In this document: piece by piece, positions 28,326 through 61,908 of the stretch
Layout of the letters: each line of letters starts with the position of its first letter
Numbering within the stretch: the first letter of the stretch is position 1
Virus record (IMG/VR): IMGVR_UViG_3300029106_000003
Span: 1,317 to 65,316 of that record
Length of the DNA stretch: 64,000 bases
Strand: one strand, 5' to 3'
Source: a virus
The notes under the pieces: generated by a model
Told to the model about the DNA's origin: nothing
Seen by the model: only the letters and a program-made list of their open reading frames with translations
Databases searched by the model: none
Translations under genes and position numbers: made by a program

Positions 28326-28687
28326 TCCTCATCATCAGGCAATTCTTGCATCAGTTTCTCAAATGGATTGACAGTAACCTCCTGTTCCAGCCTCTCAACA
28401 TATCCTCTCTCTCGCATTTTGGTCTTACTAAGCCAAATGAGCATTGTGTTGTCTTGTTCTGTCAAAGCCTTTGAGAACATAACAGTTTCTAATTTATCTT
28501 TGAACGCTTCTTCTACTTCCTCCCATTGCTTCCTAAACTCTTCATCTTTCTCTTTCCACTTGTATGCAATGGAACGAGATATTCCGGCTGCCTCACACGC
28601 TTTCGTAACGTTAAGCAGTCTTGCATCAAGTGCATTCAGAAAAATCTCTTTCTTTTTCTTTACAGGAATCCTAAACTTCTGTCCCAT
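28322..28687 (-). CDS. terS: Terminase small subunit (HTH type)
   Basis: 121 aa; HTH ...VTKACEAAGISRSIAYKWKE...; ATGA overlap with terL. Confidence 0.65.
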   Translation of the reverse strand: MGQKFRIPVKKKKEIFLNALDARLLNVTKACEAAGISRSIAYKWKEKDEEFRKQWEEVEEAFKDKLETVMFSKALTEQDNTMLIWLSKTKMRERGYVERLEQEVTVNPFEKLMQELPDDEE

Positions 28688-29375
28688 CTTTATTTACCTC
28701 CAATACGTTATTTACTATTTCCAACATCTTACAAATGCTTAATGCCTGAGCCTTGATTTTATATTTCGCTTGGACTTTTGCACTGATTTCATTTAAATGG
28801 TGCATGGTTTCCATATCTACAAGAGTAAGATTTCCCAACTCTTTTTCCGAATAACACTCTAGCGTTTCCATGAGTTTGTCGAATGATGCTTTCTGCGTGT
28901 CTATGAACATCAGCGTTACAGGAACAATTTCGTTATTCGGCATTTCTACTGTGTAATTAATATCCTTTACACTTTCCAATACTTCGTTACTGATGTGTGC
29001 GTATTCTTTTAAGGCAACATCAGTTATTTCATCAAGTAGCTGTTTTAATACCTCCGCATCGTCTTGACCAACAATACTGTTGTGACTGAGTTGTGTCGCT
29101 AATAGCCAATCGTTGGAAGTGTTATTCTCATCAATATACATTACGTGAATAGAAGTAAGACCTGCCATCTTTGCTGCCTGTGTTCTATGATTACCACTGA
29201 CAACTGTATATGTACCATCATTATGCTTTACACAAAATGGAACAGATGAAAGCTGCCCATCTCTACGGATATTATTAACAAGTGCATTAAATGTGTCATT
29301 GCTCATAAAATGAGCATTCTTCTTGACAAATTTAATGTCAGAGAGTTGAACTTCCTCAATTTTAAATTTTTTCAT
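28671..29375 (-). CDS. ParB N-terminal (ParB/Srx nuclease-like) domain protein
   Basis: ...YTVVSGNHRTQAAKMAGL... ParB-box; ATG 29375 one nt after the upstream stop. Confidence 0.75.
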   Translation of the reverse strand: MKKFKIEEVQLSDIKFVKKNAHFMSNDTFNALVNNIRRDGQLSSVPFCVKHNDGTYTVVSGNHRTQAAKMAGLTSIHVMYIDENNTSNDWLLATQLSHNSIVGQDDAEVLKQLLDEITDVALKEYAHISNEVLESVKDINYTVEMPNNEIVPVTLMFIDTQKASFDKLMETLECYSEKELGNLTLVDMETMHHLNEISAKVQAKYKIKAQALSICKMLEIVNNVLEVNKDGTEV

Positions 29376-29376
29376 A

Positions 29377-31464
29377 TTACTCCTTTCTAGGTTCGTTACC
29401 ATATTTCTGTACAAATGCTTTTAAAATCTCATCTAAATTTCCACGAATACCTGAATCTTGAATATAGTGAAGTTTACCAACGCATCTTTCATGTAACTTG
29501 AATACTCCCCGATACTTCATACTTACGGGCTTATCAGTAAACACAGAAGTGGCAATTATACCACATTCATGCTTGTATCTTATATTCAATTCCTCTTTAA
29601 ATTCAGTTGAAAGCACACCTGTAATAAGTAATCTGCTTAGCTTTGGTATAGTATGGTCTATCACAAAATCTGACTTCATCCAAACTGCATCCATGCCGTA
29701 TTTGCTGACTTTTAAGAAATCAAACATACAAGCTCCAAATACGTAATTATCTAAGAACCATAAATAGCAGAATGGAGCCGAGCCTAATACTATACCTTTC
29801 TTCAAATATATCATACGTAGATAATCTATCTCTGACATAGAAGCACGCATAAAACGAAATTTGCTATTTTCAGAAATGGAATAATCATCTGGTAAACGTT
29901 TGTACTTTAATGGAGTAATAGCACGTTTATTAAAACTGCTATCACCAGTACTACTTACATTGGAATAAATATAAGTTCTCTGGTCTTTGAATACCTCTCT
30001 GCGTCCCATGAAACCATGTTGCGACAATGCCATGTAATTCACCTGCTCTTCATCTATCTCAGAATATTTTGTACGGATTCTTTCTTGCCAACCGAAATCA
30101 TTCAACAAGAAGCGTTGTAAAGCATTGCTTGTAGCTTTCATACCGGAATGAAACTCATTCTGATAAATCAAAATATCATTTTCATTGCAATTAAGTATAG
30201 CATCCGAAATATCAGCACAATACAGAACTTCAATGTTCTTTGATTTCAGATTATCAACGAGTTTCTGATAACGTTCTGTGTATTTCTTCTTGTAGTAATC
30301 TAAACGGGACACGAAGTCATCATATAGTGACTTATGGTAAATATCCTGTGAGTTCTTATGCTTTTTTATGGCATTGAAAAGATGAATAACAGCTACCATT
30401 TCGGAAGGATTGTCCGACTGTAAATCCATGAAACTATACTCGTCGTTGAAACGTAGCTCTTTTATCTCTCCCTTAATAGCTTTATACATAAGATAGATAA
30501 AATACTCTTTCGTATATACCTTTATCTCACGGTTAGTAAGCACTTGTTCTATATCCATGTAGTATGAGTTTACCACATGGGCGACATCAAATCTTGAAGC
30601 CTCTTTTTTGATGAAAGAAAGCATCCGGTTTGACTTCTTGAACATAGAGCCTACTACCGTAACATTATCCGAGTGTTCTGCCGCCCAAAGTAGCGGTTTA
30701 TGTCTTTGGGGAACTTTGGAATAGTCAATATGAAACACCTCAAGACACTTATCAATTGTGGAGAGTTGCTTATACTCTTCTATATTTTCATGCAGGTAGG
30801 CATACTCTACAAATGAATACATGAATTTGATTGTCTCCAATACTTTATCAAAGTTCCATGAACTGTTGAAGATTCTGAACTCTGCCGTGCCAATCTTGGC
30901 AATGGAACATAAATTGAGCCAATACCTGATATGTCCCCTGTCTGAACCATTGTTGAATACTTTTAGTAGGTTGTCGATATTATCAGCTTCTAGCACACGT
31001 TTCACCACATCATATGGAGGGCTTGGCACGAGGTATTTTGTTTCCCACCACTCGGCTATATCGAATATCCGCTTGATTGGATATGCTGTATAGTAGGAAA
31101 GGACAAACATACGCTTGATAACATTCAAATCCATATCTTTGATATACAGATGTGCGTCAAAGCCTTCATTCCACATGAGGTAACTTCCTGCATCTTTCAT
31201 TGTTTTGATGAAGCCTTTCAACTCCTGTAAGTCTTCCACACAATAATGGTATGGACGAGTGTTTATCTCGCCACCAAATTGACCGTGGTGTGTGACAGCC
31301 GAACCGTCCGAGTTATTCATCATGGTTAGCTTGTTGTCCGTCCATTTATAACCGACTGGAAGGGAAATGCATTGTTTGTCTCCATCGGCAAACTCCAATT
31401 CCATGCCAAACGTGCGGTTGGCAATGTAATCAATCCACGGCTTATCTATATTCATGTTCTGCAT
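29377..31464 (-). CDS. Large protein with an N-terminal amidoligase (Amidoligase_2, glutamine-synthetase-like) domain and ~450 aa of unknown function
   Basis: FGMELEF, GGEINTRP and GTAEFRIF motifs in the first ~230 aa; remainder unrecognised. Confidence 0.55.
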   Translation of the reverse strand: MQNMNIDKPWIDYIANRTFGMELEFADGDKQCISLPVGYKWTDNKLTMMNNSDGSAVTHHGQFGGEINTRPYHYCVEDLQELKGFIKTMKDAGSYLMWNEGFDAHLYIKDMDLNVIKRMFVLSYYTAYPIKRIFDIAEWWETKYLVPSPPYDVVKRVLEADNIDNLLKVFNNGSDRGHIRYWLNLCSIAKIGTAEFRIFNSSWNFDKVLETIKFMYSFVEYAYLHENIEEYKQLSTIDKCLEVFHIDYSKVPQRHKPLLWAAEHSDNVTVVGSMFKKSNRMLSFIKKEASRFDVAHVVNSYYMDIEQVLTNREIKVYTKEYFIYLMYKAIKGEIKELRFNDEYSFMDLQSDNPSEMVAVIHLFNAIKKHKNSQDIYHKSLYDDFVSRLDYYKKKYTERYQKLVDNLKSKNIEVLYCADISDAILNCNENDILIYQNEFHSGMKATSNALQRFLLNDFGWQERIRTKYSEIDEEQVNYMALSQHGFMGRREVFKDQRTYIYSNVSSTGDSSFNKRAITPLKYKRLPDDYSISENSKFRFMRASMSEIDYLRMIYLKKGIVLGSAPFCYLWFLDNYVFGACMFDFLKVSKYGMDAVWMKSDFVIDHTIPKLSRLLITGVLSTEFKEELNIRYKHECGIIATSVFTDKPVSMKYRGVFKLHERCVGKLHYIQDSGIRGNLDEILKAFVQKYGNEPRKE

Positions 31465-32308
31465 ACCTCAACTTAACTAAGGATTTATAATTGGGAATGA
31501 ATGTAACAATGTCTCCGATACAATAATCAGAACTGTCACCGTATACTTTCATTATCGTGTATTCGCTTGAGCTGTTAGAAAAGTCCAAATGGTTATCAAG
31601 GCAACGACATTCCCCCATATCAGCCATTGAATAACCGCAATCAAGTAGTATTTGATTCCGCTCAGGGTAAATGCCGATAACTTCTGTATGCAACTCGATA
31701 CCATTTAACCCTAACTTTTCATCATCGCTGTTATATGGGATTGTGCCAAATAGCATATATTCTCCAATGCGCACGTCGCTTATGAATTTAGGTAGATCTT
31801 CATTCTGTCCTAACCAAAAACTACCACCTAAACTGATAGATTCAATGTAACTATTCAGCTTAGACCATATTTCACACAATCGTTGCATATTCGGCCTGTT
31901 TCCATTTAGGCAACCGGAAGTAATCATACCATAAGCGTGAGAATTATCATCGCATTTACGAACCGTATTAGCAATCTGTCTTGCTTCAAATAGGCTTACT
32001 CCCTCTCTGTTGTCGAAAGCATTGATGGGAATATATATTTTTTTAATACCCTTATTTACTACACAATCCATTGCTTCATACGCAGTAACAGTTACTGTCC
32101 CTTTCTGATTATGAATTGCTTTTCCAATAGAGTAGCACACGCTATCTTCAAAGTGAAGCGAGAAAATGTCATTATCAACCCTATAATGGATATGTCTCCA
32201 AATATCCTCATAGAAGTCTTTGAACATGAGAGAGACAGGGACATTCACAAGCGTTTCCGCTTTCTTGATGTTCTTTATAACATTATCAGTATATATGATT
32301 ACTTTCAT
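31442..32308 (-). CDS. YhfX-like predicted amino-acid racemase (fold-type III PLP barrel)
   Basis: SLMFKDF (candidate PLP Lys), ITSGCLNG, SLGGSFW, RIGEYMLFGTIPY; start taken at the ATGA overlap (32308), alternative 32317. Confidence 0.55.
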   Translation of the reverse strand: MKVIIYTDNVIKNIKKAETLVNVPVSLMFKDFYEDIWRHIHYRVDNDIFSLHFEDSVCYSIGKAIHNQKGTVTVTAYEAMDCVVNKGIKKIYIPINAFDNREGVSLFEARQIANTVRKCDDNSHAYGMITSGCLNGNRPNMQRLCEIWSKLNSYIESISLGGSFWLGQNEDLPKFISDVRIGEYMLFGTIPYNSDDEKLGLNGIELHTEVIGIYPERNQILLDCGYSMADMGECRCLDNHLDFSNSSSEYTIMKVYGDSSDYCIGDIVTFIPNYKSLVKLRYAEHEYR

Positions 32309-33204
32309 AGCTCCCATTTTAAAATGATACGTTCAGCTCCTTTGTATTTCGTATCTCGTTTGAATGAGAACCCGACATTGGTGAAACTTTTTATGCTTGC
32401 TTCATTTTTAGGAGAGGTCATTGCAAATATCTCTTGTGCACCATTAGAAACCAATTTTGCGATATTCGCATTGAGAAGGAGGTACTGGAATCCATTTCCT
32501 CTGTAACCAGAACAGACAAAACATTTGTCGACGTATGCCGTACCGTATTCCGTAAAATAAGCAAGCGAGTAGGCTACAAGAGAACCGTCTAGCAATAAGC
32601 CATAACTGCAACCGGATTGCAAACATTTAGTTATATCCTGTGGTTCTGATGCAAAGCAGGTTTCAGGATTCGAGAGCATGGTTTGTTCCATTGCTTCAAT
32701 TTCAGAAATGTCAGACATGGACAGCGTTTTGATTTCCATCTTACACTCAATGCTTCCTATATCAGTGGGAAACAAAGGATCATATCTGTCTATCCATGCT
32801 TTAGATAGGAATACATCAATATCTGTTTGAGGTAGTAATTTTCTTCTGTAATTTTCAAAAATACCTAATACAAACTCTTTATGCTTAGTTAGTTGTTCAT
32901 TCTTCAAAGGGCACTTACCACTACGAAAAACAAAGCCTTTATTCACTGATTTTATCCACAATGGATAGGTACGACACATGATAGGTTTATAGCCGTTATC
33001 ACATGATTTGCAGTTTTTAGCGATACATTTTACCTTTTTACCGCCAAAATAATCATTATCTATAATTTGTAAATGGGATATTTCCTGTTCGTGTCCAGCA
33101 AATTCATGGGGTAGAATAACAATATGTCCGTCCGATCCGAACGAACAACATTTCCAACCGCAACCGGAGTTTTCGCATGCTCTTATTAGTCCTTTATCGT
33201 ACAT
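32305..33204 (-). CDS. YkgJ-type Cys-cluster domain fused to a GNAT acyltransferase
   Basis: CENSGCGWKCC and CIAKNCKSC...C clusters at the N-terminus; C-terminal GNAT motif A (CSGYRGNGFQYLLL). Confidence 0.6.
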   Translation of the reverse strand: MYDKGLIRACENSGCGWKCCSFGSDGHIVILPHEFAGHEQEISHLQIIDNDYFGGKKVKCIAKNCKSCDNGYKPIMCRTYPLWIKSVNKGFVFRSGKCPLKNEQLTKHKEFVLGIFENYRRKLLPQTDIDVFLSKAWIDRYDPLFPTDIGSIECKMEIKTLSMSDISEIEAMEQTMLSNPETCFASEPQDITKCLQSGCSYGLLLDGSLVAYSLAYFTEYGTAYVDKCFVCSGYRGNGFQYLLLNANIAKLVSNGAQEIFAMTSPKNEASIKSFTNVGFSFKRDTKYKGAERIILKWEL

Positions 33205-33238: not shown

Positions 33239-33279
33239 GTGTTAAATCTGCCGAGCGTATTCCCGGCAGACTTAAACAC
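33239..33279 (-). promoter_or_regulatory. Long imperfect hairpin in the leader between the tRNAs and the enzyme cassette
   Basis: 7+4+3 bp stem (GTGTTAAATCTGCCG / CGGCAGACTTAAACAC) with a 10-nt loop, 35 nt upstream of ATG 33204. Confidence 0.4.
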
Positions 33280-33426
33280 AAATTCAATCATTCTTCAAGC
33301 TACTTACAAGAACACTTATGCAATTCTTCGGCTTCTTTCAGTCGTGTCAGATAGCAATTTCTATCACCCCGTAAACTGCACAAGCTTTAATGTTCTTGCT
33401 TTTGCTTATCGCTACTATAAGGGTTG

Positions 33427-33496
33427 AGCGGAAACAGGGAATCGAACCCCACTCTTTGGTTGGAATGCCAACGCTCTGCCGATGAGCTATTTCCGC
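33427..33496 (-). tRNA. tRNA-like gene with glycine identity set and an apparent 8-nt anticodon loop (CAUUCCAA)
   Basis: Acceptor GCGGAAA/TTTCCGC, D arm GCTC-ATCGGCA-GAGC, T arm TGGGG-TTCGATT-CCCTG, discriminator T. The anticodon arm pairs only as TTGG/CCAA around CATTCCAA. Confidence 0.6.
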
Positions 33497-33574
33497 AATA
33501 TGGGCAGCCTGCAAACCGTTTATCAGAATTTCCACTGCCCTTCCTTGTACTTCGGTCGTTATTTCTTATCTCTG

Positions 33575-33647
33575 AGGTTGAAGTGGGATTCAAACCCACG
33601 AATAACGGTTTTGCAGACCGTTGCGTTAATCACTTCGCCATTCAACC
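33575..33647 (-). tRNA. tRNA-Cys(GCA)
   Basis: Acceptor GGTTGAA/TTCAACC, anticodon arm ACGGT-CTGCAAA-ACCGT, T arm GTGGG-TTTGAAT-CCCAC, discriminator U73. Confidence 0.85.
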
Positions 33648-33727: not shown

Positions 33728-34132
33728 TCAAAACAAACTCGCTTGTTCATAATTGGGCTCTTTCTTCTCAACAACTCCAAATTCTGTGATTTCAATACCA
33801 GTATTTTCTGTGATCCATTTTGCCAAAATATGGCGATGGCAGAAATCACCCGGTTTTTCGTAGCAACAAAGAGCAACGTCTTTTCCTCCGCTTAACATTT
33901 CAATTTGTTTCACGACTTGGTTCGCATCTTGGCTTGCCAATATTCTGTCGTAAAGTTTTAGGTATTCATCGTGGGAACAAGGTCCACTTACCATATAACG
34001 AGTCGGGCAAACATTCAGCATTTGTGGAATACCAGCTATAAATCTGGGTTTTCCGATTGCTACGCAAATCATATTAACTTCCGCCTCTTTCAGTTTTCGG
34101 ATATTACCGAAATACGATGTAAAAATCTTCAT
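33728..34132 (-). CDS. DUF488 family protein
   Basis: MKIFTSYFGN... and ...VALCCYEKPGDFCHRHILAKWI signature; ATG 34132. Confidence 0.7.
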   Translation of the reverse strand: MKIFTSYFGNIRKLKEAEVNMICVAIGKPRFIAGIPQMLNVCPTRYMVSGPCSHDEYLKLYDRILASQDANQVVKQIEMLSGGKDVALCCYEKPGDFCHRHILAKWITENTGIEITEFGVVEKKEPNYEQASLF

Positions 34133-34464: not shown

Positions 34465-34614
34465 TTAATCCTCCTCAAATTCGTCTTCATATACAAAAAT
34501 ATGTTTACCACTTCCACAAATCTCGACTTCCCATTTATGTATGTTCGGCCAATATTCGATTAGAATTATGTTTCTATAGCCTTTATATGGCTCTTTCAAT
34601 GTTGCTGTTCTCAT
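34465..34614 (-). CDS. Small hypothetical protein (49 aa)
   Basis: Below the ORF-track cutoff; ATG 34614, stop 34465, 3 nt before the next ATG; MRTATLKEPYKGYRNIILIEYW... Confidence 0.4.
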   Translation of the reverse strand: MRTATLKEPYKGYRNIILIEYWPNIHKWEVEICGSGKHIFVYEDEFEED

Positions 34615-37477: not shown

Positions 37478-37708
37478 TTAAATTGCTAACTTTAATTTTT
37501 CTATATCTCGAATAAGCCTATTAGCTCTCTGCCTTTCATTGCTTGCAAAGTCCTCATTACAGATACTTTCATAGAATGCTGCATTTTCTTCTGCCTCTTT
37601 TAACGAAATCTCTTTGCGTTCTATCAAAGACTTTATTGCATCAATATCATTGCTATTAATGACTTCTTCTAAAGCTGTCCTTTTTGTTAATTCGATTGTC
37701 GCTTTCAT
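37478..37708 (-). CDS. Small helical hypothetical protein
   Basis: First gene after repeat-promoter R2. Confidence 0.55.
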   Translation of the reverse strand: MKATIELTKRTALEEVINSNDIDAIKSLIERKEISLKEAEENAAFYESICNEDFASNERQRANRLIRDIEKLKLAI

Positions 37709-37716
37709 TGCTCTTT

Positions 37717-37838
37717 GTCTTTTAATTGTTAGTAATGTTGTTGTTTTAGTATTGTAAAGATACTCATTATCAGCGAGTTAACCAAATATTTACAGCGTTA
37801 TTTTGCTCATAATCAAGAGTTTAACTTTTGGTAACTTG
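37717..37838 (-). repeat. R2: promoter-leader repeat (copy 2 of 3)
   Basis: See R1; identical architecture, and the repeat extends into the first codons (MKAT). Confidence 0.8.
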
Positions 37839-38695: not shown

Positions 38696-39457
38696 ATGAA
38701 CGAGGAAATAACAAAGCTATTACTTCAATGCGACACGTTGAAAGCCCGTTTGTTGGGGCTGCGCCCATTACCACCGGATGCCCTGCAAAAGATAGAGAAT
38801 GCGTTTGCCATTGAATACACCTATGAAAGCAACCGGATCGAGGGAAATACGCTCACACTGCAAGAAACGGAGTTAGTAGTGAACGAGGGGGTTACTATCG
38901 CCGGAAAGTCAATGCGGGAACACCTTGAAGCGATTAACCACGTTGAAGCGATAGACTACATAAAGGACTTTGCAAAGGGAGGTATGGAAATATCGGAGCG
39001 CACAATCAAGGAAATACACGCTATTGTGCTACATGGCATAGACAGAGAGAATGCCGGACGTTATCGGGGCGTGCCTGTTATGATTTCGGGAAGTACACAT
39101 GTCCCTCCACAGCCGTATTTGATACAACCACAAATGGAGGCTTTTATGACAAGGTTTTCCGGAATGGAGGAGCAGGGCATTCACCCGGTGCTCATTGCGG
39201 CTTATCTTCATGATGAGTTGGTACGAATACACCCGTTTATAGACGGGAACGGGCGCACATCTCGGCTTCTGATGAATCTATACTTACTCCGCAACGGTTA
39301 TACGCTGGTAAATCTCAAAGGCAGCAACGAGGACAAAATAAGCTATTACAAGGCACTGGAAGCCTCTCATACGGAGAACAATCCGGCAGAGTTCCAAAAG
39401 GTCGTTATACGGGCTGAAATAGAATCTTTAAGCCGGTATCTCTCAATTGTAGGATAG
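38696..39457 (+). CDS. Fic-domain protein (class II, with N-terminal inhibitory motif)
   Basis: HPFIDGNGRTSR active-site motif; SNRIEG matches the (S/T)xxxE(G/N) auto-inhibition motif. Confidence 0.85.
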   Translation: MNEEITKLLLQCDTLKARLLGLRPLPPDALQKIENAFAIEYTYESNRIEGNTLTLQETELVVNEGVTIAGKSMREHLEAINHVEAIDYIKDFAKGGMEISERTIKEIHAIVLHGIDRENAGRYRGVPVMISGSTHVPPQPYLIQPQMEAFMTRFSGMEEQGIHPVLIAAYLHDELVRIHPFIDGNGRTSRLLMNLYLLRNGYTLVNLKGSNEDKISYYKALEASHTENNPAEFQKVVIRAEIESLSRYLSIVG

Positions 39458-39562
39458 TATTGTCTGGATTTTAAAGATTATGAATGAAGCAATGATTTCA
39501 TTTGTAACTCGTTTAAGTTTATTTATTACCTGACACGACCTAAATTTAAAGTATAAGGAGAC

Positions 39563-39592
39563 AAAAAAAAGGAGGGCGTTTTGCGTCCTCCT
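39563..39592 (-). terminator. Rho-independent terminator after higA
   Basis: Minus strand AGGAGGACG-CAAAA-CGCCCTCCT followed by T8. Confidence 0.7.
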
Positions 39593-39616
39593 CGTTATGG
39601 ATCCTGCTTTATATAC

Positions 39617-39949
39617 TTACCACAAAGCAACCTTTCCGCCTATTCCCAAATCAAGGGTGGCCGTTGTAATTCCCAAAGCCTTAAAAACTTTGCTCATAGT
39701 AGGAAGTGTTATTATACACTTACCGCTTTCAAGTTTGGATATTTGCGACTTCTTTACACCTACTTTAGCCCCTAACTCTTCCTGTGTGAGGTTCTGTTTG
39801 AGCCTTTCTGCCTTGATAGCCTCTCCAATGTAATAAGCCTGCAAATCATCTTTGAGTTGAGCTTCCATAGCGTCCCTTTCGGGAGTGCCTTTTTCTCCCC
39901 AAACCTCATCTACTACCACGCTAAGTGGAGTTAAGTTCATCTTTGCCAT
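39617..39949 (-). CDS. higA: HigA-type XRE antitoxin
   Basis: C-terminal HTH LTQEELGAKVGVKKSQISKLESG; 2-nt spacing from the toxin gene. Confidence 0.75.
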   Translation of the reverse strand: MAKMNLTPLSVVVDEVWGEKGTPERDAMEAQLKDDLQAYYIGEAIKAERLKQNLTQEELGAKVGVKKSQISKLESGKCIITLPTMSKVFKALGITTATLDLGIGGKVALW

Positions 39950-39951
39950 AG

Positions 39952-40296
39952 CTATTTGTTTTTATCGTTGAAGTATTCTATTCTCAATTTCTCCGCCTTT
40001 TCTATCTCCTTTTTAGGCGTTTTCTGTGTCTTTTTCACTATCCCGTGAGTGGCTACTACCAAAGCCTCTATTTCCGTGTCCCAAAAAGCAAACAGGCGAT
40101 AACATACCCCGTTAAAGAGCGTCCGAAACTCCCATATATCGGAGTTCTCCAACTTCTTGAAGAGTTCCTTATCTATTTCCCCTCCCTCCACTTTAAGGAG
40201 ATTATAGGTTATTTTCTTTTGCGCCTTTTCTGGTAAGGAAGAAACAAACTCCCTTGCTGCGTCCATAAATGCTATTTTTATTCTTCGTCCGCTCAT
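39952..40296 (-). CDS. higB: HigB/Gp49-like RelE-superfamily toxin
   Basis: IWEFRTLFNGVCYRLFAFW...VVATHGIVKKTQKTPKKEIEKAE pattern; ATG 40296 (the TTG at 40320 overlaps the -7 box). Confidence 0.7.
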   Translation of the reverse strand: MSGRRIKIAFMDAAREFVSSLPEKAQKKITYNLLKVEGGEIDKELFKKLENSDIWEFRTLFNGVCYRLFAFWDTEIEALVVATHGIVKKTQKTPKKEIEKAEKLRIEYFNDKNK

Positions 40297-40317
40297 AAGG
40301 TTCAAATTATTACTCTG

Positions 40318-40355
40318 CAAAGATATACAAAAGTTTCCATAAAAGCAAACTTTTG
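40318..40355 (-). promoter_or_regulatory. higBA promoter with inverted-repeat operator
   Basis: Minus strand CAAAAGTTT-N10-AAACTTTTG, 2 nt, then TATCTTTG. Confidence 0.5.
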
Positions 40356-40486
40356 CGAGGATTTATTAGCTTGATAATTGGCTGACCCCTCCTACTTGTA
40401 AGCTCGGAGGGGAGATGTTCAGGAAATTGGGATCCGATATATTATAAACATCGGTATCTTTATATTAATGCTTAAAATATTACGTT

Positions 40487-40786
40487 TCATATCGCCTTAA
40501 AATCCAATCGGCCTAAATTGTCATTTATAGACTTAATGATACTTTCCTGTATCAAGGTTCCGCATTGGGTTGTTAGTTGTATAAAGTGATCTGTATCATT
40601 ATCTGATACAATTCCGTACTTGTTCTTCCAGTTGCAAAAAGAGTTCTCTATATCTCGCAATCCTGCCAACATGATTAATAACTCCCTTGTCTGTCCACTG
40701 ATGACTGCGTTACGCATGGTATCGACGCTACGATGTTCGATTACTTCTACTGTCTGCTCATCTTGTTTTAATTCGGTTGTTTCCAT
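40487..40786 (-). CDS. Hypothetical protein
   Basis: ORF track. Confidence 0.55.
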   Translation of the reverse strand: METTELKQDEQTVEVIEHRSVDTMRNAVISGQTRELLIMLAGLRDIENSFCNWKNKYGIVSDNDTDHFIQLTTQCGTLIQESIIKSINDNLGRLDFKAI

Positions 40787-40992
40787 ATAAAAAAAGTTTA
40801 TTGTTTAACGATGTTAGGAATAGCGGGAATCCTCCCGGACACGTCCGCTACCGGTGGGATAGCTTACTTTCACAAGCGGCTGCCCCGTCTATAATTTAAC
40901 AAACATATAAAAGCACCCTATTAGGGTAGGGTAACCCGGAGCGGATAAACCGCCCCTTTGGATTTATAATAACTTTATGGTTATAGCTGATA

Positions 40993-41805
40993 TTATGCCG
41001 AGAGTTTGGTATTGAACAATTCAATGACAAACTTTCTACCTGATTCGGTCCAATACATGTGCTCTCTTGATTTCTGTACTCCGTTATCCATATAAGGGTA
41101 GGGGACATGTTTGGTAAATCCTTTACTGCGGTATTTGGCCGTGAGGAAGTAAACAGAAGATTGTCTGTATTGAACTCCCCATTCACATAGTAGTTTGTTC
41201 AGCTTTATAGCCGATACACCTAAGAATGCTGCTATCATGTTTGTCGTCACAAGTCCTTCACTCGACATGATTTCATCGTAACATTTACCTTTGGGGGCGA
41301 GGACCTTTATAGTATCGTCCTTTATGGATATTTCCTCGTCTTTTCTCTCGATGATAATTTGTTTCTGGGCATTTTCAGTTTCGAGCTGTTTTAATCGTTC
41401 TTCTCTTTTGGCAAGAGTGGCTTGTGCAATGGTTAGTGCACGTGCCATGATTTCTTCTGGTGTGTCTTCTTGCTTGGTGGAGATGTAGCCGCCTGTCTTT
41501 CGGATTGACGGAAGGACTTCACTTGTTATCCATTTGCGAAATGATTTTGCTTCTTGCTTCCTACTATCAAGAATAACATCATACATTCCGTCTTCATTAA
41601 CGAATAACATTTGTTGTATGCCTCCTGTTGTTTCAAGGGGGTAAGTTGAAATTACCTCCTTACTAAGTCTCTGATTTACGCCTTTTGATGATAATCCAAG
41701 ACATCTGCATAAATCACCTAAGCAAAATTTAGGATCATCGCTTGTACCGGCAGTACGGATTTCACCGAATTTAGGTGAATTAAAAATTTGAATGTTAGAT
41801 TGCAT
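40993..41805 (-). CDS. Bro-N / phage antirepressor (Ant, KilAC-type C-terminus)
   Basis: N-terminus IQIFNSPKFGEIRT...FCLGDLCRCLGL...FRKWITSEVLPSIRKTGGY is the Bro-N pattern; C-terminal Ant-like domain. Confidence 0.75.
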   Translation of the reverse strand: MQSNIQIFNSPKFGEIRTAGTSDDPKFCLGDLCRCLGLSSKGVNQRLSKEVISTYPLETTGGIQQMLFVNEDGMYDVILDSRKQEAKSFRKWITSEVLPSIRKTGGYISTKQEDTPEEIMARALTIAQATLAKREERLKQLETENAQKQIIIERKDEEISIKDDTIKVLAPKGKCYDEIMSSEGLVTTNMIAAFLGVSAIKLNKLLCEWGVQYRQSSVYFLTAKYRSKGFTKHVPYPYMDNGVQKSREHMYWTESGRKFVIELFNTKLSA

Positions 41806-42253
41806 ATCTGTAAGCATTTAAAGATATGTTATAGGCAAACATAAAAAGCGGCTGCCATATACGCTGCTTACAGATAATGGGTTCCACTCCACAGAGCGAA
41901 ATATCTACGTATAGGCAACCGCCAATATATAAAAGTATAGGCATAAAAAAAGCCCAACTTTCTATTGAGCAAATTAACCGCTTGCCCTGCGAAATGGTTT
42001 ACCATTATCATGTAAGCATTACAAAAGTATTGAATTTTACGAGGTAATGCTAATTATTGGGCACAAAATTAGAGCATGGAATCTTGAAAGTATATGAATT
42101 TCATACATAATTCAACATTATTAACCTTTGAGGGCTATTATACGATTTCCTAAATCAGTGAATCGTAAGGCAGTATTAAAAGATACGAAAAGTAAGCACA
42201 TATGTAAATATTGGTAAGTATCTTGGTATCTATTGAAATTCATTTTATCTGAA

Positions 42254-43168
42254 TCATAATAGAGCTAATGCTTGTGTTACAATCGGTGTTAGTTGATTTG
42301 CTGCTATTCCCGTAGCAATACCTTGTATAGCGTTCAATGCCAATTTTAAGGTTTTCTTACCCCAAGATGGTTTATTACACTCTTCTTTTATCGTATCAAT
42401 TGCCATTTTTAGGTCTGAATTATCTATATCACTTGCTTTTTCTACAAGCTGAGAGATTACACTTTGTAGTTTTTCTTTTTGATCTTGGTCTGATATATAT
42501 AATGTAAGATCACTGTCTGAAATATTTCCTGTATTGACATTACCATCTCCTGTATTAGCTACTACTGAATTAATATAATAATTATTCATAATATTACTTA
42601 TCACTTTTTGTTCTTCAATTTTCGAAAAATCAATACCTGCATCAATTTTTTCGTCTAAATCTAGAAAAAATGATAACAGCTTTGACTTAAATTTATCAAC
42701 AATACACACCAATGAAGACACTGAGAACTCCTGCCATACTTTTTCTACATTCCCAGAAACATATTTGTTTACTTCGGTATATGCCATTGATGGAGAATTA
42801 ATAGATACATTGCCAGTTTTTTGGCTACTGCCTATATTTTCTATTTCGTTTAGTGAATGAACAATGCACACATGACTCATGCAATCATTTATGATAGCAT
42901 TATCAAAAATACCTTGAGGAATTATGATGTTTTGATACATTCCCACAAATGGTTGTGAAACATTGGCCTTTACAATAGCATTGAGAATTCTATAATCTGG
43001 AAGGTTTTCTGCATCTGGATATCCATTTTGTTCGTTTCTTATCCACATTTCAAAGTCATTATTACCCAATTTGGATGCGACTATCTGAGCTTTCAATAAT
43101 ATACCTTTAATCGGCTTATCATCGCCTAAGTCTTGAATGATTTTGTTTATTATCTCTTTCATAAGCAT
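42254..43168 (-). CDS. AbiTii-like abortive-infection domain protein
   Basis: N-terminus ...IKGILLKAQIVASKLGNNDFEMWIRNEQNGYPD...LPDYR matches the AbiTii signature; 1-nt overlap with the upstream gene. Confidence 0.6.
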   Translation of the reverse strand: MLMKEIINKIIQDLGDDKPIKGILLKAQIVASKLGNNDFEMWIRNEQNGYPDAENLPDYRILNAIVKANVSQPFVGMYQNIIIPQGIFDNAIINDCMSHVCIVHSLNEIENIGSSQKTGNVSINSPSMAYTEVNKYVSGNVEKVWQEFSVSSLVCIVDKFKSKLLSFFLDLDEKIDAGIDFSKIEEQKVISNIMNNYYINSVVANTGDGNVNTGNISDSDLTLYISDQDQKEKLQSVISQLVEKASDIDNSDLKMAIDTIKEECNKPSWGKKTLKLALNAIQGIATGIAANQLTPIVTQALALL

Positions 43169-48664: not shown

Positions 48665-49165
48665 CTATTGTACAATTTCCCAGTCTTCTGCAAACACATC
48701 ACTGATGGATGGTACCCACGAATCAGCACGTCCCGTATTTTCGTTATAGATAAGGCATTGGCTTGTATAGTCAATAAAACCTTTTCCTTTCAGAATAAGG
48801 TCTTTTGCTGATTGAGGAAGCGATTGCATCTTGGGAATGGTATCGCTTTCAATATGTGCAGGCACTTGCTTGAATACCGTCAGGCCTTTGCCGTTCCAGC
48901 CGTTTCTACGGATAGCCCCACCTTGCTTCAAAACTTCGATAGCATCACCGAAACACATAGGAGTTTCTTTCTTGACTTCTCGATATGATTCTTCAAACAA
49001 TTCTTTGGGGGACCAACTTTCATAGCCATATTCAGCACGAGTGTGATATCCAAGCTTGCAAGATTCATGCTCTCCTATTTCACTTTTTACCAAACCTTTA
49101 CGGCAAGCTTCGCCTAATGTCATAGGTTCTGCTTCAATCTGTTTTGTGCTAATGTACTTTTTCAT
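48665..49165 (-). CDS. DUF2829 (Tad2-like) domain protein with a ~65-aa N-terminal extension
   Basis: FGDAIEVLKQGGAIRRNGWNGKGLTVF ... SWVPSISDVFAEDWEIV is the DUF2829 signature. Confidence 0.7.
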   Translation of the reverse strand: MKKYISTKQIEAEPMTLGEACRKGLVKSEIGEHESCKLGYHTRAEYGYESWSPKELFEESYREVKKETPMCFGDAIEVLKQGGAIRRNGWNGKGLTVFKQVPAHIESDTIPKMQSLPQSAKDLILKGKGFIDYTSQCLIYNENTGRADSWVPSISDVFAEDWEIVQ

Positions 49166-51862: not shown

Positions 51863-51884
51863 TGCTATACTATTTTAGTAAATA

Positions 51885-61893: not shown

Positions 61894-61908
61894 ATCTTTC
61901 TCTTTTTG

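What the first reader, a model, noticed from the sequence alone, without database searches (positions are those of the whole stretch)
29377..33204. Translationally coupled GNAT / PLP-barrel / amidoligase cassette directly upstream of ParB-TerS-TerL
Seen in sequence: three overlapping genes.
- A YkgJ-type Cys-cluster domain fused to a GNAT (CENSGCGWKCC; GYRGNGFQ).
- A YhfX-like fold-type III PLP barrel (SLMFKDF, SLGGSFW, RIGEYMLFGTIPY).
- A 695-aa protein whose first ~230 aa carry Amidoligase_2 motifs (FGMELEF, GGEINTRP, GTAEFRIF), followed by ~450 uncharacterised residues.
- The junctions are an ATGA at 32305-32308, a 14-23 nt overlap at 31442-31464, and 1-nt spacing at 29375/29377.
- The cassette runs straight into a ParB-nuclease-like gene and the terminase. 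It is transcribed from late-type promoter P4 together with DUF488 and two tRNAs.

Established knowledge: phage amidoligases, GNAT-fold enzymes (for example Mom) and PLP enzymes take part in amino-acid-type hypermodification of DNA bases or in peptide tagging. ParB-like proteins often accompany phage DNA-modification genes.

Inference: this is a late-expressed pathway that activates an amino acid (possibly racemised) and ligates it to DNA just before packaging, to a virion protein, or to a small molecule. The gene combination and the long unknown C-terminal region look undescribed to me.
Basis: partly seen in the sequence, partly recalled or inferred. Interest (0 to 1): 0.8.

Follow-up and report, generated by a model that had tools for sequence, protein, structure and literature searches.

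The report
Phage tRNA-Gly-linked DNA-modification-like gene cassette
A gut Bacteroidales prophage carries an elaborated version of a widespread, uncharacterised phage gene module, sited just before the DNA-packaging genes, whose core enzyme resembles both Dam and the phage Mu Mom enzyme and which is often linked to its own unusual glycine tRNA, so it probably attaches glycine-based adducts to phage DNA.

Summary
The three overlapping minus-strand genes exist as described, and every quoted motif is present.

- The "~450 uncharacterised residues" of the 695-aa protein are two recognisable domains. One is a degenerate Dam-like Rossmann domain. The other is a GNAT-like domain (Pfam PF22559) whose best structural match among GNATs is phage Mu Mom.
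- The N-terminal domain is a glutamine-synthetase-fold amidoligase.
- The 291-aa protein is a fold-type III PLP enzyme.
- "YkgJ-type" is not confirmed.

**Synteny**
- The order DUF488 | [Cys]-GNAT | PLP | tri-domain protein | ParB | TerS | TerL is kept wherever the flank is present in 86 related loci, down to 30% identity.
- The cassette elaborates a much larger family (1384 clusters at 50% identity). Its core is DUF488 – tRNA-Gly – (Dam-like + GNAT-like) – ParB – terminase.
- 54 of 58 tRNA genes beside family members are tRNA-Gly. They keep the elements known from E. coli to specify glycine charging, but their anticodon loops are often degenerate.
- The window's own copy has a 6-nt anticodon loop.

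**Interpretation**
Mom glycylates DNA adenine using Gly-tRNA(Gly). The best reading is therefore a late, tRNA(Gly)-dependent DNA base hypermodification, further tailored here by the amidoligase, PLP enzyme and acetyltransferase. Nothing is shown biochemically.

The parts
33728..34132 (-). DUF488-N3a protein (134 aa from the ATG at 34132). Conserved first gene of the module; biochemical role unknown.
   Evidence: PF22751 at 38.1 bits against a cut-off of 27, and phrog_2450 E 9e-36. It lies upstream of the family gene in the window clade. It is also upstream in 53 of 64 diverse two-domain loci that have enough flank, confirmed by Pfam in L123 and L095.
33574..33647 (-). tRNA-Cys(GCA), apparently canonical. 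A variable passenger: replaced by tRNA-Phe or tRNA-Ser, or absent, in relatives.
   Evidence: ARAGORN; Rfam tRNA 66 bits; isotype counts across related loci.
33426..33496 (-). Non-canonical tRNA-Gly(UCC)-like gene. It keeps G1-C2-G3, discriminator U73 and C35-C36, but has a 6-nt anticodon loop AUUCCA (plus a C31/A39 mismatch in this copy). Proposed glycyl donor.
   Evidence: ARAGORN calls it tRNA-?(Glu|Gly) with a 2-base anticodon. Rfam tRNA 47.4 bits, with one deletion in the anticodon arm. The same 6-nt-loop gene occurs in the window and 66 of 87 related loci, with U31-G39 and C31-G39 variants.
32305..33204 (-). 299-aa protein. N-terminal Cys-rich domain (about aa 1-140; 8 invariant Cys, unclassified metal-binding domain) fused to a canonical acyl-CoA GNAT (about aa 175-299; YRGNGFQ motif A). 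Proposed tailoring acetyltransferase.
   Evidence: PF00583 E 2e-7, matched by 24 of 26 family members. Invariant Cys residues come from alignment A3. The Cys domain is fused, a separate ORF (L004/L005), or absent (L006 and the 71%-identity clade). In P0250 a GNAT is fused directly to the large protein.
31442..32308 (-). 288-aa fold-type III PLP-dependent enzyme, a shortened alanine-racemase / D-Ser-dehydratase / D-Thr-aldolase-like barrel. Putative PLP lysine in SLMFKDF. Proposed tailoring or precursor-supply enzyme.
   Evidence: AF2 pLDDT 92.8, pTM 0.89. Foldseek against PDB gives 3wqg, 4pb3, 3anu, 4v15 and 1xfc at E 1e-13 to 1e-11, TM 0.72-0.77. Invariant residues are K33, D102/R104/E105/G106, T133/G135/C136, G164/G165/S166, R183-E186 and Y253. 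NCBIfam ornithine racemase E 8e-9, far below its cut-off. PF14031 scores 21.7 against a cut-off of 22.
30700..31464 (-). Tri-domain protein, domain 1 (about aa 1-255): glutamine-synthetase-fold carboxylate-amine ligase (Amidoligase_2), with the active-site residue pattern conserved.
29935..30627 (-). Tri-domain protein, domain 2 (about aa 280-510): Dam-like Rossmann domain. It has lost the glycine-rich motif I and acidic motif II, and carries Y434-Q435-N-E437-F at the DPPY position. Proposed DNA and base-binding module, not a methyltransferase.
29380..29907 (-). Tri-domain protein, domain 3 (about aa 520-695): GNAT-phage-like domain. It has no canonical CoA pyrophosphate loop and no alpha-4 helix. 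Family signature motifs are SDF, KLSKL and VSMKYRG. Proposed aminoacyl (glycyl) transferase.
28671..29375 (-). ParB/Srx-like protein (234 aa), the invariable downstream partner. Proposed loader or activator of the DNA-modifying enzyme.
   Evidence: PF02195 at 25.6 bits against a cut-off of 26.3. phrog_7405 E 9e-55, plus several ParB-like PHROGs. TIGR00180 E 3e-8. A ParB-like gene is next downstream in 79 of 80 diverse two-domain loci and in Gordonia phage Sting.
26814..28687 (-). Terminase small subunit (28687-28322) and large subunit (28325-26814). The module ends directly at these genes.
   Evidence: phrog_4044 E 1e-12 and phrog_2 E 2e-26. The same position upstream of unrelated Terminase_6-type TerL genes is seen in L002, L123 and L095.

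Best explanation
The cassette is the elaborated form of a widespread late phage module: DUF488, often a tRNA-Gly, a Dam-like + Mom-like-GNAT enzyme, and ParB, placed immediately upstream of the terminase. It most likely hypermodifies phage DNA after replication and before or during packaging.

**Proposed mechanism (inferred, not shown)**
1. The degenerate Dam-like domain binds DNA and holds a flipped base, most plausibly adenine.
2. The GNAT-like domain transfers glycine from Gly-tRNA(Gly) onto the base's exocyclic amine, as phage Mu Mom does. The donor is either the host tRNA or the phage's own non-decoding tRNA-Gly.
3. The ParB-like protein loads or activates the enzyme on DNA.
4. In the window's clade, the fused glutamine-synthetase-fold amidoligase uses ATP to form a further amide bond on the glycyl adduct, for example by acylating its free amine with an amino-acid carboxylate.
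5. The fold-type III PLP enzyme either supplies the partner (a D-amino acid or an amine) or reworks the DNA-bound aminoacyl group through its free alpha-amine.
6. The canonical GNAT caps the remaining amine with an acyl-CoA.

**What is shown:** folds, motifs, gene order, domain fusions and the tRNA-Gly linkage.
**What is inferred:** the substrate (DNA adenine), the donor (Gly-tRNA), and the order and chemistry of the tailoring steps.
For: 2. **No canonical CoA site.** The GNAT-like domain has no glycine-containing beta4-alpha3 loop and no alpha-4 helix. This fits a non-CoA acyl donor.
3. **tRNA-Gly linkage.**
   - In 80 diverse viral loci of the family, 37 of 40 nearby tRNA genes are tRNA-Gly, with anticodons UCC, CCC, ACC and GCC. 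Most lie 30-360 nt upstream on the same strand.
   - In 80 bacterial-genome loci, 17 of 18 are tRNA-Gly, and the 18th is Gly-like with an 8-nt loop.
   - In Mycobacterium phage Megabear, a tRNA-Gly overlaps the start of the family gene gp70.
   - The window and 66 of 87 close relatives carry a tRNA-Gly(UCC) with a 6-nt anticodon loop.
4. **tRNA features.** Of 33 unique sequences, 32 begin GCG. All Gly-typed genes carry C35-C36, and the 3' ends read ...CGC-U. Only 28 have U33, 20 have a purine at position 37, and 21 have GG in the D loop. Charging elements are kept while decoding constraints are relaxed.
5. **Precedents.**
   - Mom transfers glycine from Gly-tRNA(Gly) to N6-adenine of dsDNA (PMC13219725).
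   - CmoY, an ATP-dependent amide ligase, acts on a modified DNA base, and ParB-domain proteins co-occur with that pathway (PMC12783734).
   - PLP decarboxylases and an acetyltransferase act on DNA-bound amino acids (PMC8989533).
   - A ParB-like protein is required by phage thymine dioxygenases (PMC13229309).
6. **Context.** A ParB-like gene is next downstream in 79 of 80 loci, and DUF488 is upstream in 53 of 64. The terminase follows in very different phages.
7. **Fusions.** P0331 joins Dam-like + GNAT-like to a restriction-endonuclease-fold domain, as reported for Mom in jumbo phages. P0250 joins the acetyltransferase GNAT to the tri-domain protein, tying the add-on genes to the core.
8. 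**Intact active sites.** The amidoligase and PLP active-site residues are invariant.
Against: - There is no biochemical or sequencing evidence of any DNA modification.
- In the window's clade the Dam-like domain has lost motifs I, II and IV, so base flipping is an assumption.
- A tRNA-Gly gene was found in only 36 of the 80 viral family loci, and in 29 of the 69 with at least 500 nt of upstream flank. It is absent from the most distant tri-domain relatives L002, L004 and L006. It is therefore dispensable.
- A linked tRNA could equally be the substrate rather than the donor.
- The role of DUF488 is unexplained.
- The proposed tailoring chemistry is a plausible scheme only. Mom's product rearranges to a terminal amide, which offers no handle for an amidoligase.
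Confidence: 0.45

Rival explanations
1. The system is a tRNA-dependent protein or peptide aminoacyl-transferase. The GNAT-like domain transfers glycine from Gly-tRNA(Gly) to a protein amine, as FemX or L/F-transferase do, and the amidoligase extends the tag as PafA does. The target would be a virion, terminase or host protein. The Dam-like domain would be only a scaffold.
For: - FemX-type and L/F-type transferases are GNAT-fold enzymes that use aminoacyl-tRNA (reviewed in PMC13219725).
- The module sits among late packaging genes.
- To my knowledge, phage Amidoligase_2 proteins were originally predicted to make peptide modifications (Iyer et al. 2009; the paper is not held).
Against: - The fusion to a Dam-like domain is conserved across more than a thousand clusters.
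- The ParB partner is obligatory.
- One relative carries a restriction-endonuclease-fold fusion.
- The best GNAT match is Mom.
- All of these point to nucleic acid. No candidate acceptor protein is conserved in the neighbourhood other than ParB and the terminase.
Confidence: 0.15
2. tRNA-Gly is the substrate, not the donor. The module would modify, protect, replace or inactivate tRNA-Gly or Gly-tRNA(Gly). It could be a counter-defence against tRNA-targeting toxins or a way to reprogram translation late in infection. The Dam-like domain would act as an RNA-adenine-binding module.
For: - tRNA-Gly is tightly linked to the family gene.
- GNAT toxins such as TacT acetylate Gly-tRNA(Gly) (PMC13219725).
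- Phage tRNAs are known to compensate for host tRNA depletion (general knowledge).
Against: - Many linked tRNAs have defective anticodon loops: no U33, a pyrimidine at position 37, or 6-nt or 8-nt loops. This argues against a role as replacement decoders.
- ParB adjacency, the terminase position and the restriction-endonuclease-fold fusion are not explained.
- About half of the loci have no tRNA gene.
Confidence: 0.15
3. The cassette makes a small molecule. The product would be an amino-acid or nucleotide conjugate, built by the PLP enzyme, amidoligase and GNATs. It would serve as a precursor, a signal mimic or an anti-defence metabolite, and DNA would not be touched.
For: - All four enzyme classes are typical of small-molecule pathways: racemase or aldolase-type PLP enzyme, glutamine-synthetase-like ligase, acyl-CoA GNAT, and a Cys-rich metal domain.
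- The Dam-like pocket could bind an adenosine-containing ligand.
- The window carries several anti-defence genes, for example a Tad2-like gene.
Against: - The core of the family lacks the PLP, amidoligase and acetyltransferase genes. It consists only of DUF488, tRNA-Gly, Dam-like/GNAT-like and ParB.
- The constant position at the terminase and the nuclease fusion are hard to reconcile with metabolite synthesis.
Confidence: 0.1
4. The large protein is simply a divergent DNA adenine methyltransferase, as its actinophage homologues are annotated. The neighbouring genes would be unrelated moron or housekeeping genes.
For: - Gordonia phage homologues are annotated 'DNA methyltransferase'.
- The fold is Dam-like.
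- The two-domain family keeps motif I-like and motif II-like elements, GCSGNFTxE and SNDVS.
Against: - The window's clade lacks the glycine-rich loop and the motif II acid, and has YQNEF instead of DPPY.
- Even the two-domain family has F/Y in place of the catalytic D/N, giving FPPTY.
- The GNAT-like domain is the most conserved part of the protein.
- The gene order is conserved down to 30% identity, and a GNAT-amidoligase fusion exists.
Confidence: 0.05

Closest known systems
Phage Mu Mom, a GNAT-fold, Gly-tRNA(Gly)-dependent N6-adenine DNA hypermodification enzyme (PMC13219725; PDB 8bv8)
   Same: - Both have a GNAT fold without a canonical CoA site.
- Both are late phage genes.
- Glycine and tRNA-Gly are implicated here by gene linkage.
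- Restriction-endonuclease-fold fusions occur in relatives, as reported for Mom in jumbo phages.
   Different: - There is no detectable sequence homology.
- The domain here is fused to a Dam-like domain, whereas Mom carries an HTH-like insertion. The window's clade adds an amidoligase as well.
- The module always has ParB-like and usually DUF488 partners.
- It often encodes its own non-canonical tRNA-Gly, whereas Mu uses host tRNA.
- The product is unknown.
CmoA/CmoX/CmoY 5-carboxymethylcytosine-glycine pathway of Synechococcus phage S-B43 (PMC12783734)
   Same: - A methyltransferase-fold enzyme installs a handle on a DNA base.
- An ATP-dependent amide ligase then builds an amide bond on it.
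- ParB-domain genes co-occur.
   Different: - The ligase there is an asparagine-synthetase homologue (AMP-forming). Here it is a glutamine-synthetase-fold Amidoligase_2.
- The handle there is a carboxymethyl group from Cx-SAM placed on cytosine C5.
- No CmoA homologue and no intact SAM site is present here.
Thymidine hypermodification clusters of phages M6, ViI and PaMx11 (5-hmdU kinase, amino-acid:DNA transferase, PLP decarboxylase, radical SAM enzyme, acetyltransferase; PMC8989533)
   Same: - The logic is the same: an amino acid is installed on a DNA base and then tailored by a PLP enzyme and an acetyltransferase.
- Amidoligase genes are noted in metagenomic variants.
   Different: - No 5-hmdU kinase or aGPT-Pplase-type transferase lies in the cassette.
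- No dUMP hydroxymethylase was seen among the roughly 38 window ORFs scanned.
- The PLP enzyme here is fold-type III, not the tryptophan-synthase-beta-like enzymes of M6 and ViI.
- The installing enzyme is GNAT-like and probably tRNA-dependent.
Pfam PF22555/PF22556 + PF22559 two-domain phage proteins (for example Mycobacterium phage Megabear gp70, Gordonia phage Sting gp28; PHROG 7858)
   Same: - They are true homologues of residues about 265-695 of the window protein.
- They share the GNAT signature VSMKYRG.
- They have the same ParB, DUF488 and terminase context.
   Different: - They lack the amidoligase domain and the upstream PLP and GNAT genes.
- They retain motif I-like and motif II-like elements and FPPTY.
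- None is functionally characterised. They are annotated 'hypothetical' or 'DNA methyltransferase'.
Non-proteinogenic tRNA-Gly used by the FemXAB GNAT-fold transferases in Staphylococcus (recalled from general knowledge, not tested here)
   Same: Dedicated tRNA-Gly species serve as glycyl donors for a GNAT-fold transferase. They show altered D-loop or T-loop features and reduced fitness for translation.
   Different: - The acceptor there is a peptidoglycan precursor.
- The tRNAs there are chromosomal and keep normal anticodon loops.
- Here the deviations are mainly in the anticodon loop, and the acceptor is proposed to be DNA.

Membership tests
Mom-type tRNA-dependent DNA adenine glycyltransferase | GNAT fold | tested here: met
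Mom-type tRNA-dependent DNA adenine glycyltransferase | Sequence-level homology to Mom, and equivalents of the essential residues R111, S124, D149 and R151 | tested here: not met
   hhalign of a 77-sequence domain alignment against Mu Mom gives probability 0.3% and E 0.19. The family's own invariant residues (D599, S610, S648, K650, R652) cannot be mapped reliably onto Mom.
Mom-type tRNA-dependent DNA adenine glycyltransferase | Uses Gly-tRNA(Gly) as donor and dsDNA adenine as acceptor | not testable with these tools
   Support is indirect only. 54 of 58 tRNA genes beside family members are tRNA-Gly. DNA is suggested by the Dam-like domain, the ParB partner and the restriction-endonuclease-fold fusion.
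Dam-type N6-adenine DNA methyltransferase | Rossmann methyltransferase fold with a target-recognition region | tested here: met
Dam-type N6-adenine DNA methyltransferase | SAM-binding motif I (FxGxG) and catalytic motif IV (D/N/S-P-P-Y/F/W) | tested here: not met
   The window clade has VVNSYYMDIE at motif I and IYQNEF at motif IV. The wider family has GCSGNFTxE and FPPTY, in which F/Y replaces the catalytic D/N.
Amidoligase_2 / glutamine-synthetase-fold carboxylate-amine ligases | Profile match above the curated cut-off, and the glutamine-synthetase/GCL fold | tested here: met
Amidoligase_2 / glutamine-synthetase-fold carboxylate-amine ligases | Conserved acidic metal ligands and basic phosphate ligands | tested here: met
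   E22, E24, E66, N68, R70, H105, R180, E195 and R197 are invariant in 28 sequences down to 29% identity. Their assignment to metal or phosphate binding is inferred from the fold.
Fold-type III PLP-dependent enzymes (alanine racemase / D-Ser dehydratase / D-Thr aldolase / YhfX-Orr group) | TIM-barrel plus beta-domain fold | tested here: met
   pLDDT 92.8. Foldseek E 1e-13 to 1e-11, TM 0.72-0.77. A weak profile hit to 3anu. NCBIfam Orr E 8e-9, below its cut-off.
Fold-type III PLP-dependent enzymes (alanine racemase / D-Ser dehydratase / D-Thr aldolase / YhfX-Orr group) | Schiff-base lysine after beta-1 and a glycine-rich phosphate loop | tested here: met
   K33 is invariant (numbering from the ATG at 32317) and follows strand 28-32. 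G164-G165-S166 and R183 are invariant. The zinc ligands H/C of the D-Ser dehydratases were not identified, and the reaction type is undetermined.
GNAT acyl-CoA N-acyltransferases (the small GNAT of the 299-aa protein) | Acetyltransf_1 profile above cut-off, and a motif A CoA-binding loop | tested here: met
   PF00583 scores 31.7 bits against a cut-off of 20.7, and 24 of 26 homologues match. R235 and G236 are nearly invariant within Y-R-G-N-G-F-Q.
YkgJ / CxxCxxCC (PF03692) metal-binding domain | Profile or profile-sequence similarity to the family | tested here: not met
   None of 26 members gives a Pfam hit at E<=1. hhalign against E. coli YkgJ gives probability 0.1%. Only a motif-level resemblance remains: CGxxCC and YKPxxCRxYP.
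ParB/Srx N-terminal domain proteins | ParB_N profile and the GxxR-type box | tested here: inconclusive
   PF02195 scores 25.6 bits, just under the 26.3 cut-off. phrog_7405 scores E 9e-55, about ten ParB-like PHROGs also match, and TIGR00180 scores E 3e-8. The sequence SGNHRTQAA is present. NTP binding was not tested.
Thymidine hypermodification clusters (5-HMUDK + aGPT-Pplase/AADT) | P-loop 5-hmdU DNA kinase and a HhH-type amino-acid:DNA transferase in the cluster | tested here: not met
   No such families were found among the eight genes from 34461 to 26814, nor among the other roughly 30 window ORFs scanned. The scan of the window was not exhaustive.

The most novel reading that the evidence does not exclude
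A very widespread phage system, found in Actinomycetota, Bacillota, Bacteroidota, Planctomycetota, Chloroflexota and other lineages, uses dedicated phage-encoded tRNA-Gly molecules. These tRNAs are still chargeable but have been released from decoding. They would act as glycyl donors for a Dam-like/GNAT-like enzyme, ParB-assisted, that aminoacylates DNA immediately before packaging.

In common human-gut Bacteroidales prophages, the glycyl adduct would be extended into a short capped peptide-like chain on the base. The chain would be built from glycine, an ATP-ligated and possibly D- or PLP-reworked amino acid, and an N-acyl cap. This would be a new class of DNA hypermodification and the first virus-encoded non-translational tRNA used for DNA chemistry.
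Probability: 0.3. Interest if true: 0.9.

Novelty: new variant of a known kind. Interest (0 to 1): 0.8.

Why it matters
- **A second tRNA-dependent DNA-modifying lineage.** Only one such enzyme, Mom, is characterised so far (2026). If the reading is right, this family would be a second and much larger lineage: 1384 clusters at 50% identity, hundreds of viral contigs and many prophages.
- **A role for odd phage tRNAs.** It would explain why many phages carry a lone, peculiar tRNA-Gly next to their terminase genes.
- **Roles for two unexplained partners.** It would give working roles to DUF488 and to phage ParB-like proteins.
- **A new DNA adduct in common gut phages.** It predicts a peptide-like DNA adduct in very common human-gut Bacteroidales prophages; the exact 695-aa protein is on 158 contigs, and its 90%-identity cluster has 687 members. 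This bears on restriction evasion, on sequencing artefacts in gut viromes, and on enzyme tools for site-specific DNA aminoacylation.
- **Directly testable.** Co-expression followed by nucleoside LC-MS would test the hypothesis.

Tried and rejected
**Searches that found nothing useful**
- Megablast of the 7.7-kb region against 50,697 phage records gave no match. tblastn of the 695-aa protein found only five Gordonia phages, matching the C-terminal part.
- Sequence-profile searches of the PDB found nothing for the 695-aa family and nothing meaningful for DUF488. The PLP family gave only marginal hits. Fold searches were needed.
- PADLOC gave no meaningful hits for the cassette. DUF488 weakly matched candidate-system models. 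NCBIfam added only a sub-threshold ornithine racemase hit.
- Literature searches for PF22559, PF22555, PF22556, DUF488-N3a and for DUF488 function found no relevant paper. The Iyer 2009 and 2013 papers are not held.

**Hypotheses tested and not supported**
- YkgJ-type assignment of the Cys domain failed both HMM and hhalign tests.
- Membership of the Mom family by sequence was rejected.
- A thymidine-hypermodification-type cluster was rejected: no kinase and no aGPT-Pplase.
- The "polyvalent protein" idea of Iyer 2017 was considered. It was set aside because the protein sits in a conserved operon, and no portal/MuF fusions or peptidase domains were detected in it.
- tRNA genes as a constant part of the tri-domain clade was rejected. 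ARAGORN and Rfam find none in L002, L004, L006, L086 or L088.
- The tRNA as a prophage attachment site was considered. It was rejected because the genes are complete, on the same strand, next to the terminase, and always Gly with varying anticodons.

**Not informative**
- The sigma-70 promoter and terminator scan gave counts close to the shuffled expectation, and the consensus is the wrong type for Bacteroidota. No copy of the window's 110-nt repeat lies upstream of the cassette.

Full report
**1. Observation**

- The minus strand carries three tightly packed ORFs: 33204-32305 (299 aa), 32317-31442 (291 aa; 288 aa from the ATG at 32308) and 31464-29377 (695 aa).
- The junctions are as stated.
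  - The methionine at 32308 is invariant in 32 homologues, which start there. Genes 1 and 2 therefore overlap as ATGA.
  - Genes 2 and 3 overlap by 14 or 23 nt, depending on the start codon.
  - The ParB-like ORF starts one base after the stop of gene 3.
- Downstream lie a ParB_N protein, TerS and TerL. Upstream lie two tRNA genes and a DUF488-N3a protein.
- No close relative exists among 50,697 deposited phage genomes.
- The exact proteins occur on hundreds of metagenomic and genomic contigs, including Barnesiella intestinihominis and Bacteroides ovatus records and gut Caudoviricetes assemblies. Those records name them amidoligase family protein, PLP-dependent enzyme / predicted amino acid racemase, GNAT family N-acetyltransferase and ParB family protein.

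**2. What the three proteins are**

*The 299-aa protein*
- It has a canonical GNAT at its C-terminus: PF00583, 31.7 bits against a cut-off of 20.7, with 24 of 26 homologues matching.
- Its N-terminal domain carries eight invariant cysteines.
- That domain gives no Pfam hit in any of 26 members. It shows no profile similarity to E. coli YkgJ (probability 0.1%). "YkgJ-type" remains a motif-level resemblance.

*The 291-aa protein*
- It gives a confident model (pLDDT 92.8).
- The model matches fold-type III PLP enzymes: D-threo-3-hydroxyaspartate dehydratase, D-serine dehydratase, D-threonine aldolase and alanine racemases (E 1e-13 to 1e-11, TM 0.72-0.77).
- A lysine after strand 1 (K33) and a GGS loop are invariant.
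The reaction type is open.

*The 695-aa protein*
- It models well (pLDDT 87.4) and has three domains.
- **Residues 1 to about 255** are a glutamine-synthetase-fold carboxylate-amine ligase.
  - PF12224 scores above its cut-off.
  - The Glu/His/Arg set is invariant.
- **Residues about 520-695** are Pfam PF22559 "GNAT-phage-like" (E 1.5e-24).
  - This domain has no glycine-containing beta4-alpha3 loop.
  - It has no helix between strands 5 and 6, so it lacks a canonical CoA site.
- The "~450 uncharacterised residues" are therefore two recognisable domains of unknown function.

**3. Conserved linkage**

- Three relatives at 30%, 45% and 67% identity were looked up. A further 80 viral contigs were fetched.
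- Across the 86 loci, the order DUF488 | [Cys domain] GNAT | PLP | tri-domain | ParB | TerS | TerL is identical wherever the flank exists.
- The Cys domain is fused (as here), a separate ORF (L004/L005) or absent (L006 and the 71%-identity clade). It is an accessory.
- In the 30% relatives the PLP homologue is retained, and a 126-aa protein without a detectable family replaces the GNAT.
- In P0250 an acetyltransferase GNAT is fused to the N-terminus of the tri-domain protein. This is Rosetta-stone evidence that the small GNAT and the large protein act together.

**4. The cassette is a derived form of a much larger module**

- An exhaustive profile search found 1384 clusters (50% identity) at E<=1e-3.
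- About 20-25 of the best 150 are tri-domain proteins.
- Most of the rest are proteins of about 430-460 aa that match only profile positions about 265-675, that is, the Dam-like plus GNAT-like part.
- Prototypes are Mycobacterium phage Megabear gp70 (PF22555 E 5e-85 and PF22559 E 2e-57) and Gordonia phage Sting gp28, which is annotated "DNA methyltransferase" and followed by a ParB-like gene.
- This two-domain family conserves GCSGNFTxE, SNDVS, FPPTYxGGYE, SDF, RLSKL and TTAFTxKPVSMKYRG.
- The window's clade keeps the GNAT signature intact. It has lost the motif I-like and II-like elements, changed FPPTY to YQxEF, and gained the amidoligase.
- In 80 diverse viral loci of the two-domain family:
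  - a ParB-like gene is next downstream in 79 of 80;
  - DUF488 lies within 1.5 kb upstream in 53 of 64 loci with enough flank;
  - in two loci checked with Pfam the order is DUF488-N3a, tRNA-Gly, the enzyme, ParB_N, an HTH/TerS-like protein, a Terminase_6-type TerL and the portal. That terminase family differs from the window's.
- Family members occur in prophages of Streptomyces, Bacillus-group bacteria, Planctomycetota, Dehalococcoidia, Vicinamibacterales, Bacteroidales and others.
- Other architectures include Dam-like + GNAT-like + a restriction-endonuclease-fold domain (P0331), and a Dam-like domain interrupted by an HNH domain (P0356).

**5. The tRNA-Gly link**

- The second tRNA of the window (33426-33496) is called tRNA-?(Glu|Gly) with a two-base anticodon.
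- Rfam aligns it to the tRNA model with one deletion in the anticodon arm (47.4 bits).
- It has G1-C2-G3, discriminator U, and U34-C35-C36. In relatives it has a 5-bp anticodon stem closing a 6-nt loop AUUCCA.
- The same gene is present in the window and 66 of 87 related loci, with U31-G39 and C31-G39 variants. The neighbouring tRNA varies among Cys, Phe and Ser.
- It is absent from the most divergent tri-domain loci.
- In Megabear a tRNA-Gly(UCC) overlaps the start of gp70.
- In the 80 diverse viral loci, ARAGORN finds 40 tRNA genes.
  - 37 are tRNA-Gly: UCC 16, CCC 11, ACC 9, GCC 1.
  - Nearly all lie 30-360 nt upstream on the same strand.
  - 29 of the 69 loci with at least 500 nt of upstream flank have one within 500 nt.
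- In an independent set of 80 bacterial-genome loci, 17 of 18 tRNA genes are tRNA-Gly. The 18th has an 8-nt loop containing CACC.
- Among the 33 unique tRNA-Gly sequences (from the viral-contig loci and Megabear):
  - 32 begin GCG, all carry C35-C36, and their 3' ends read ...CGC-U, many followed by an encoded CCA;
  - only 28 have U33, only 20 a purine at position 37, and only 21 a GG in the D loop.
- G1:C72, C2:G71, G3:C70, U73, C35 and C36 are the glycine identity elements established for E. coli GlyRS (general knowledge). U33 and a purine at 37 are near-universal in decoding tRNAs.
- The pattern indicates tRNAs selected for charging with glycine but relaxed for decoding.

**6. Mechanism**

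- Mom transfers glycine from Gly-tRNA(Gly) to N6 of adenine in dsDNA, after which the adduct rearranges (PMC13219725).
- A Dam-like domain fused to a Mom-like GNAT without a CoA site, genetically linked to tRNA-Gly, is most simply read as a second, independent lineage of tRNA(Gly)-dependent DNA base glycyltransferases.
- ParB-like proteins have precedents as partners of phage DNA-modifying enzymes. One is an obligatory activator of thymine dioxygenases (PMC13229309). ParB-domain genes also co-occur with CmoX (PMC12783734). An archaeal ParB-fold protein fused to DUF488-HTH binds CTP (PMC12704722).
- For the window's additions there are also precedents.
  - An ATP-dependent amide ligase acts on a modified base in DNA (CmoY).
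  - PLP enzymes and an acetyltransferase act on DNA-bound amino acids (PMC8989533).
- I therefore propose these steps:
  1. glycylation of a base by the Dam-like/GNAT-like core;
  2. ATP-dependent amide formation by the fused amidoligase, on the glycyl amine or on a derived carboxylate;
  3. supply or on-DNA reworking of an amino-acid moiety by the fold-type III PLP enzyme;
  4. N-acylation by the small GNAT.
- The closest structures of the PLP enzyme include aldolases that interconvert glycine and beta-hydroxy amino acids.
- All of this is inference. The shown facts are folds, motifs, synteny, fusions and the tRNA association.

**7. Rivals**

- The donor-tRNA idea could equally serve protein glycylation, as with FemX, L/F-transferase and PafA.
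- The tRNA might be the substrate rather than the donor, as with TacT-type chemistry or anticodon-nuclease counter-defence.
- The add-on enzymes might make a small molecule.
- The protein might be a divergent methyltransferase.
- Several observations weigh against these rivals:
  - the conserved Dam-like fusion;
  - the constant ParB partner and terminase position;
  - the restriction-endonuclease-fold fusion;
  - the degenerate anticodon loops, which argue against replacement decoders;
  - the missing methyltransferase motifs.
- None of the rivals is excluded.

**8. Comparison with known systems, and novelty**

- By sequence the core is not a member of the Mom family and not a functional Dam (motifs not met).
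- It is a member of Pfam PF22559/PF22555-type phage proteins and of PHROGs 7858 and 2443, for which I found no functional study.
- The cassette is not a thymidine-hypermodification cluster.
- I rate it a new variant of a known kind: phage DNA hypermodification clusters, with a Mom-like tRNA-dependent installing step. The claim stays open until an adduct is detected.

**9. Transcription claim**

- All genes from 34461 to 26814 are on one strand with minimal spacing, which is compatible with co-transcription.
- "Late promoter P4" is not verifiable.
  - The sigma-70 scan is uninformative for Bacteroidota.
  - The ~110-nt repeat at 26587-26694, 37705-37838 and 51883-51989 has no copy upstream of the cassette.
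  - A single TAnnTTTG box lies at 34494-34501.
  - A hairpin at 33247-33270 separates the tRNAs from the first cassette gene.

Noticed in passing
window 20805-20876 (-): A second unusual tRNA-Gly(UCC) with C33 instead of the universal U33 (loop ACUCCAU). It keeps the GCG...CGC-U acceptor end. It lies among tail genes, next to a plus-strand ORF with a type I restriction HSDR_N-like domain (18423-19583). This phage therefore carries two non-canonical tRNA-Gly genes.
   Followed up: partly
window 26587-26694, 37705-37838, 51883-51989 (- strand): Three copies, about 90-95% identical, of a ~110-nt element. Each ends just upstream of the ATG of a small minus-strand ORF. No copy lies upstream of the cassette.
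   Followed up: partly
window 49498-50898 (-) and 25920-26357 (-): The SPP1-type portal gene is about 21 kb upstream of the terminase rather than directly after it. TerL is followed by a terminator-like hairpin (26713-26736), a 62-aa ORF and a RadC-like JAB protein. Across 38.3-22.9 kb the arrangement is native, because it is collinear with several IMG/VR contigs.
   Followed up: partly
window 38696-44232 and 48665-49165: A cluster of accessory, defence and anti-defence genes. It comprises a Fic protein (+ strand), two small adjacent minus-strand ORFs at 39617-40320 that I did not scan (possibly a toxin-antitoxin pair), a BRO-N/KilAC antirepressor, AbiTii, an ImmA/IrrE-HTH regulator and a Tad2-like (anti-Thoeris) protein.
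   Followed up: no
window 60805-61935 (-) and 55792-56325 (-): A C5 cytosine DNA methyltransferase (PF00145, E 2e-60) and a small SAM-methyltransferase-like ORF with a weak N6_N4_Mtase hit. The element also carries conventional DNA methylases.
   Followed up: no
window 33247-33270 (-): A perfect 7-bp hairpin, TCTGCCG-N10-CGGCAGA, followed by TTTAACAC. It lies between the tRNA genes and the first cassette gene. It may be a processing or attenuation site.
   Followed up: no
L216 2858-2932; L118, L122, L136, L145, L151 (tRNA genes upstream of family genes): Linked tRNA-Gly genes with extreme anticodon-loop deviations. One has an 8-nt loop with CACC. Others have C, G or A at position 33. Nine have ACC anticodons, which to my knowledge are not normally used by bacteria.
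   Followed up: partly
P0331, P0356, P0250 (family members found by the representative search): Informative fusions. P0331 is Dam-like + GNAT-like + a restriction-endonuclease-fold domain (MTES_1575/DUF559). P0356 is a Dam-like domain split by an HNH endonuclease insertion. P0250 is an acetyltransferase GNAT + amidoligase + GNAT-phage-like protein that matches the tri-domain profile over positions 4-675.
   Followed up: partly
phrog_2443 and PMC11318856: Firmicutes prophage 'amidoligase enzyme' proteins of PHROG 2443 share the C-terminal GNAT-phage-like region. In Clostridium clostridioforme prophages they are reported two ORFs away from a gamma-glutamyl cyclotransferase. This hints that the amidoligase may form gamma-glutamyl-type amides.
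   Followed up: no
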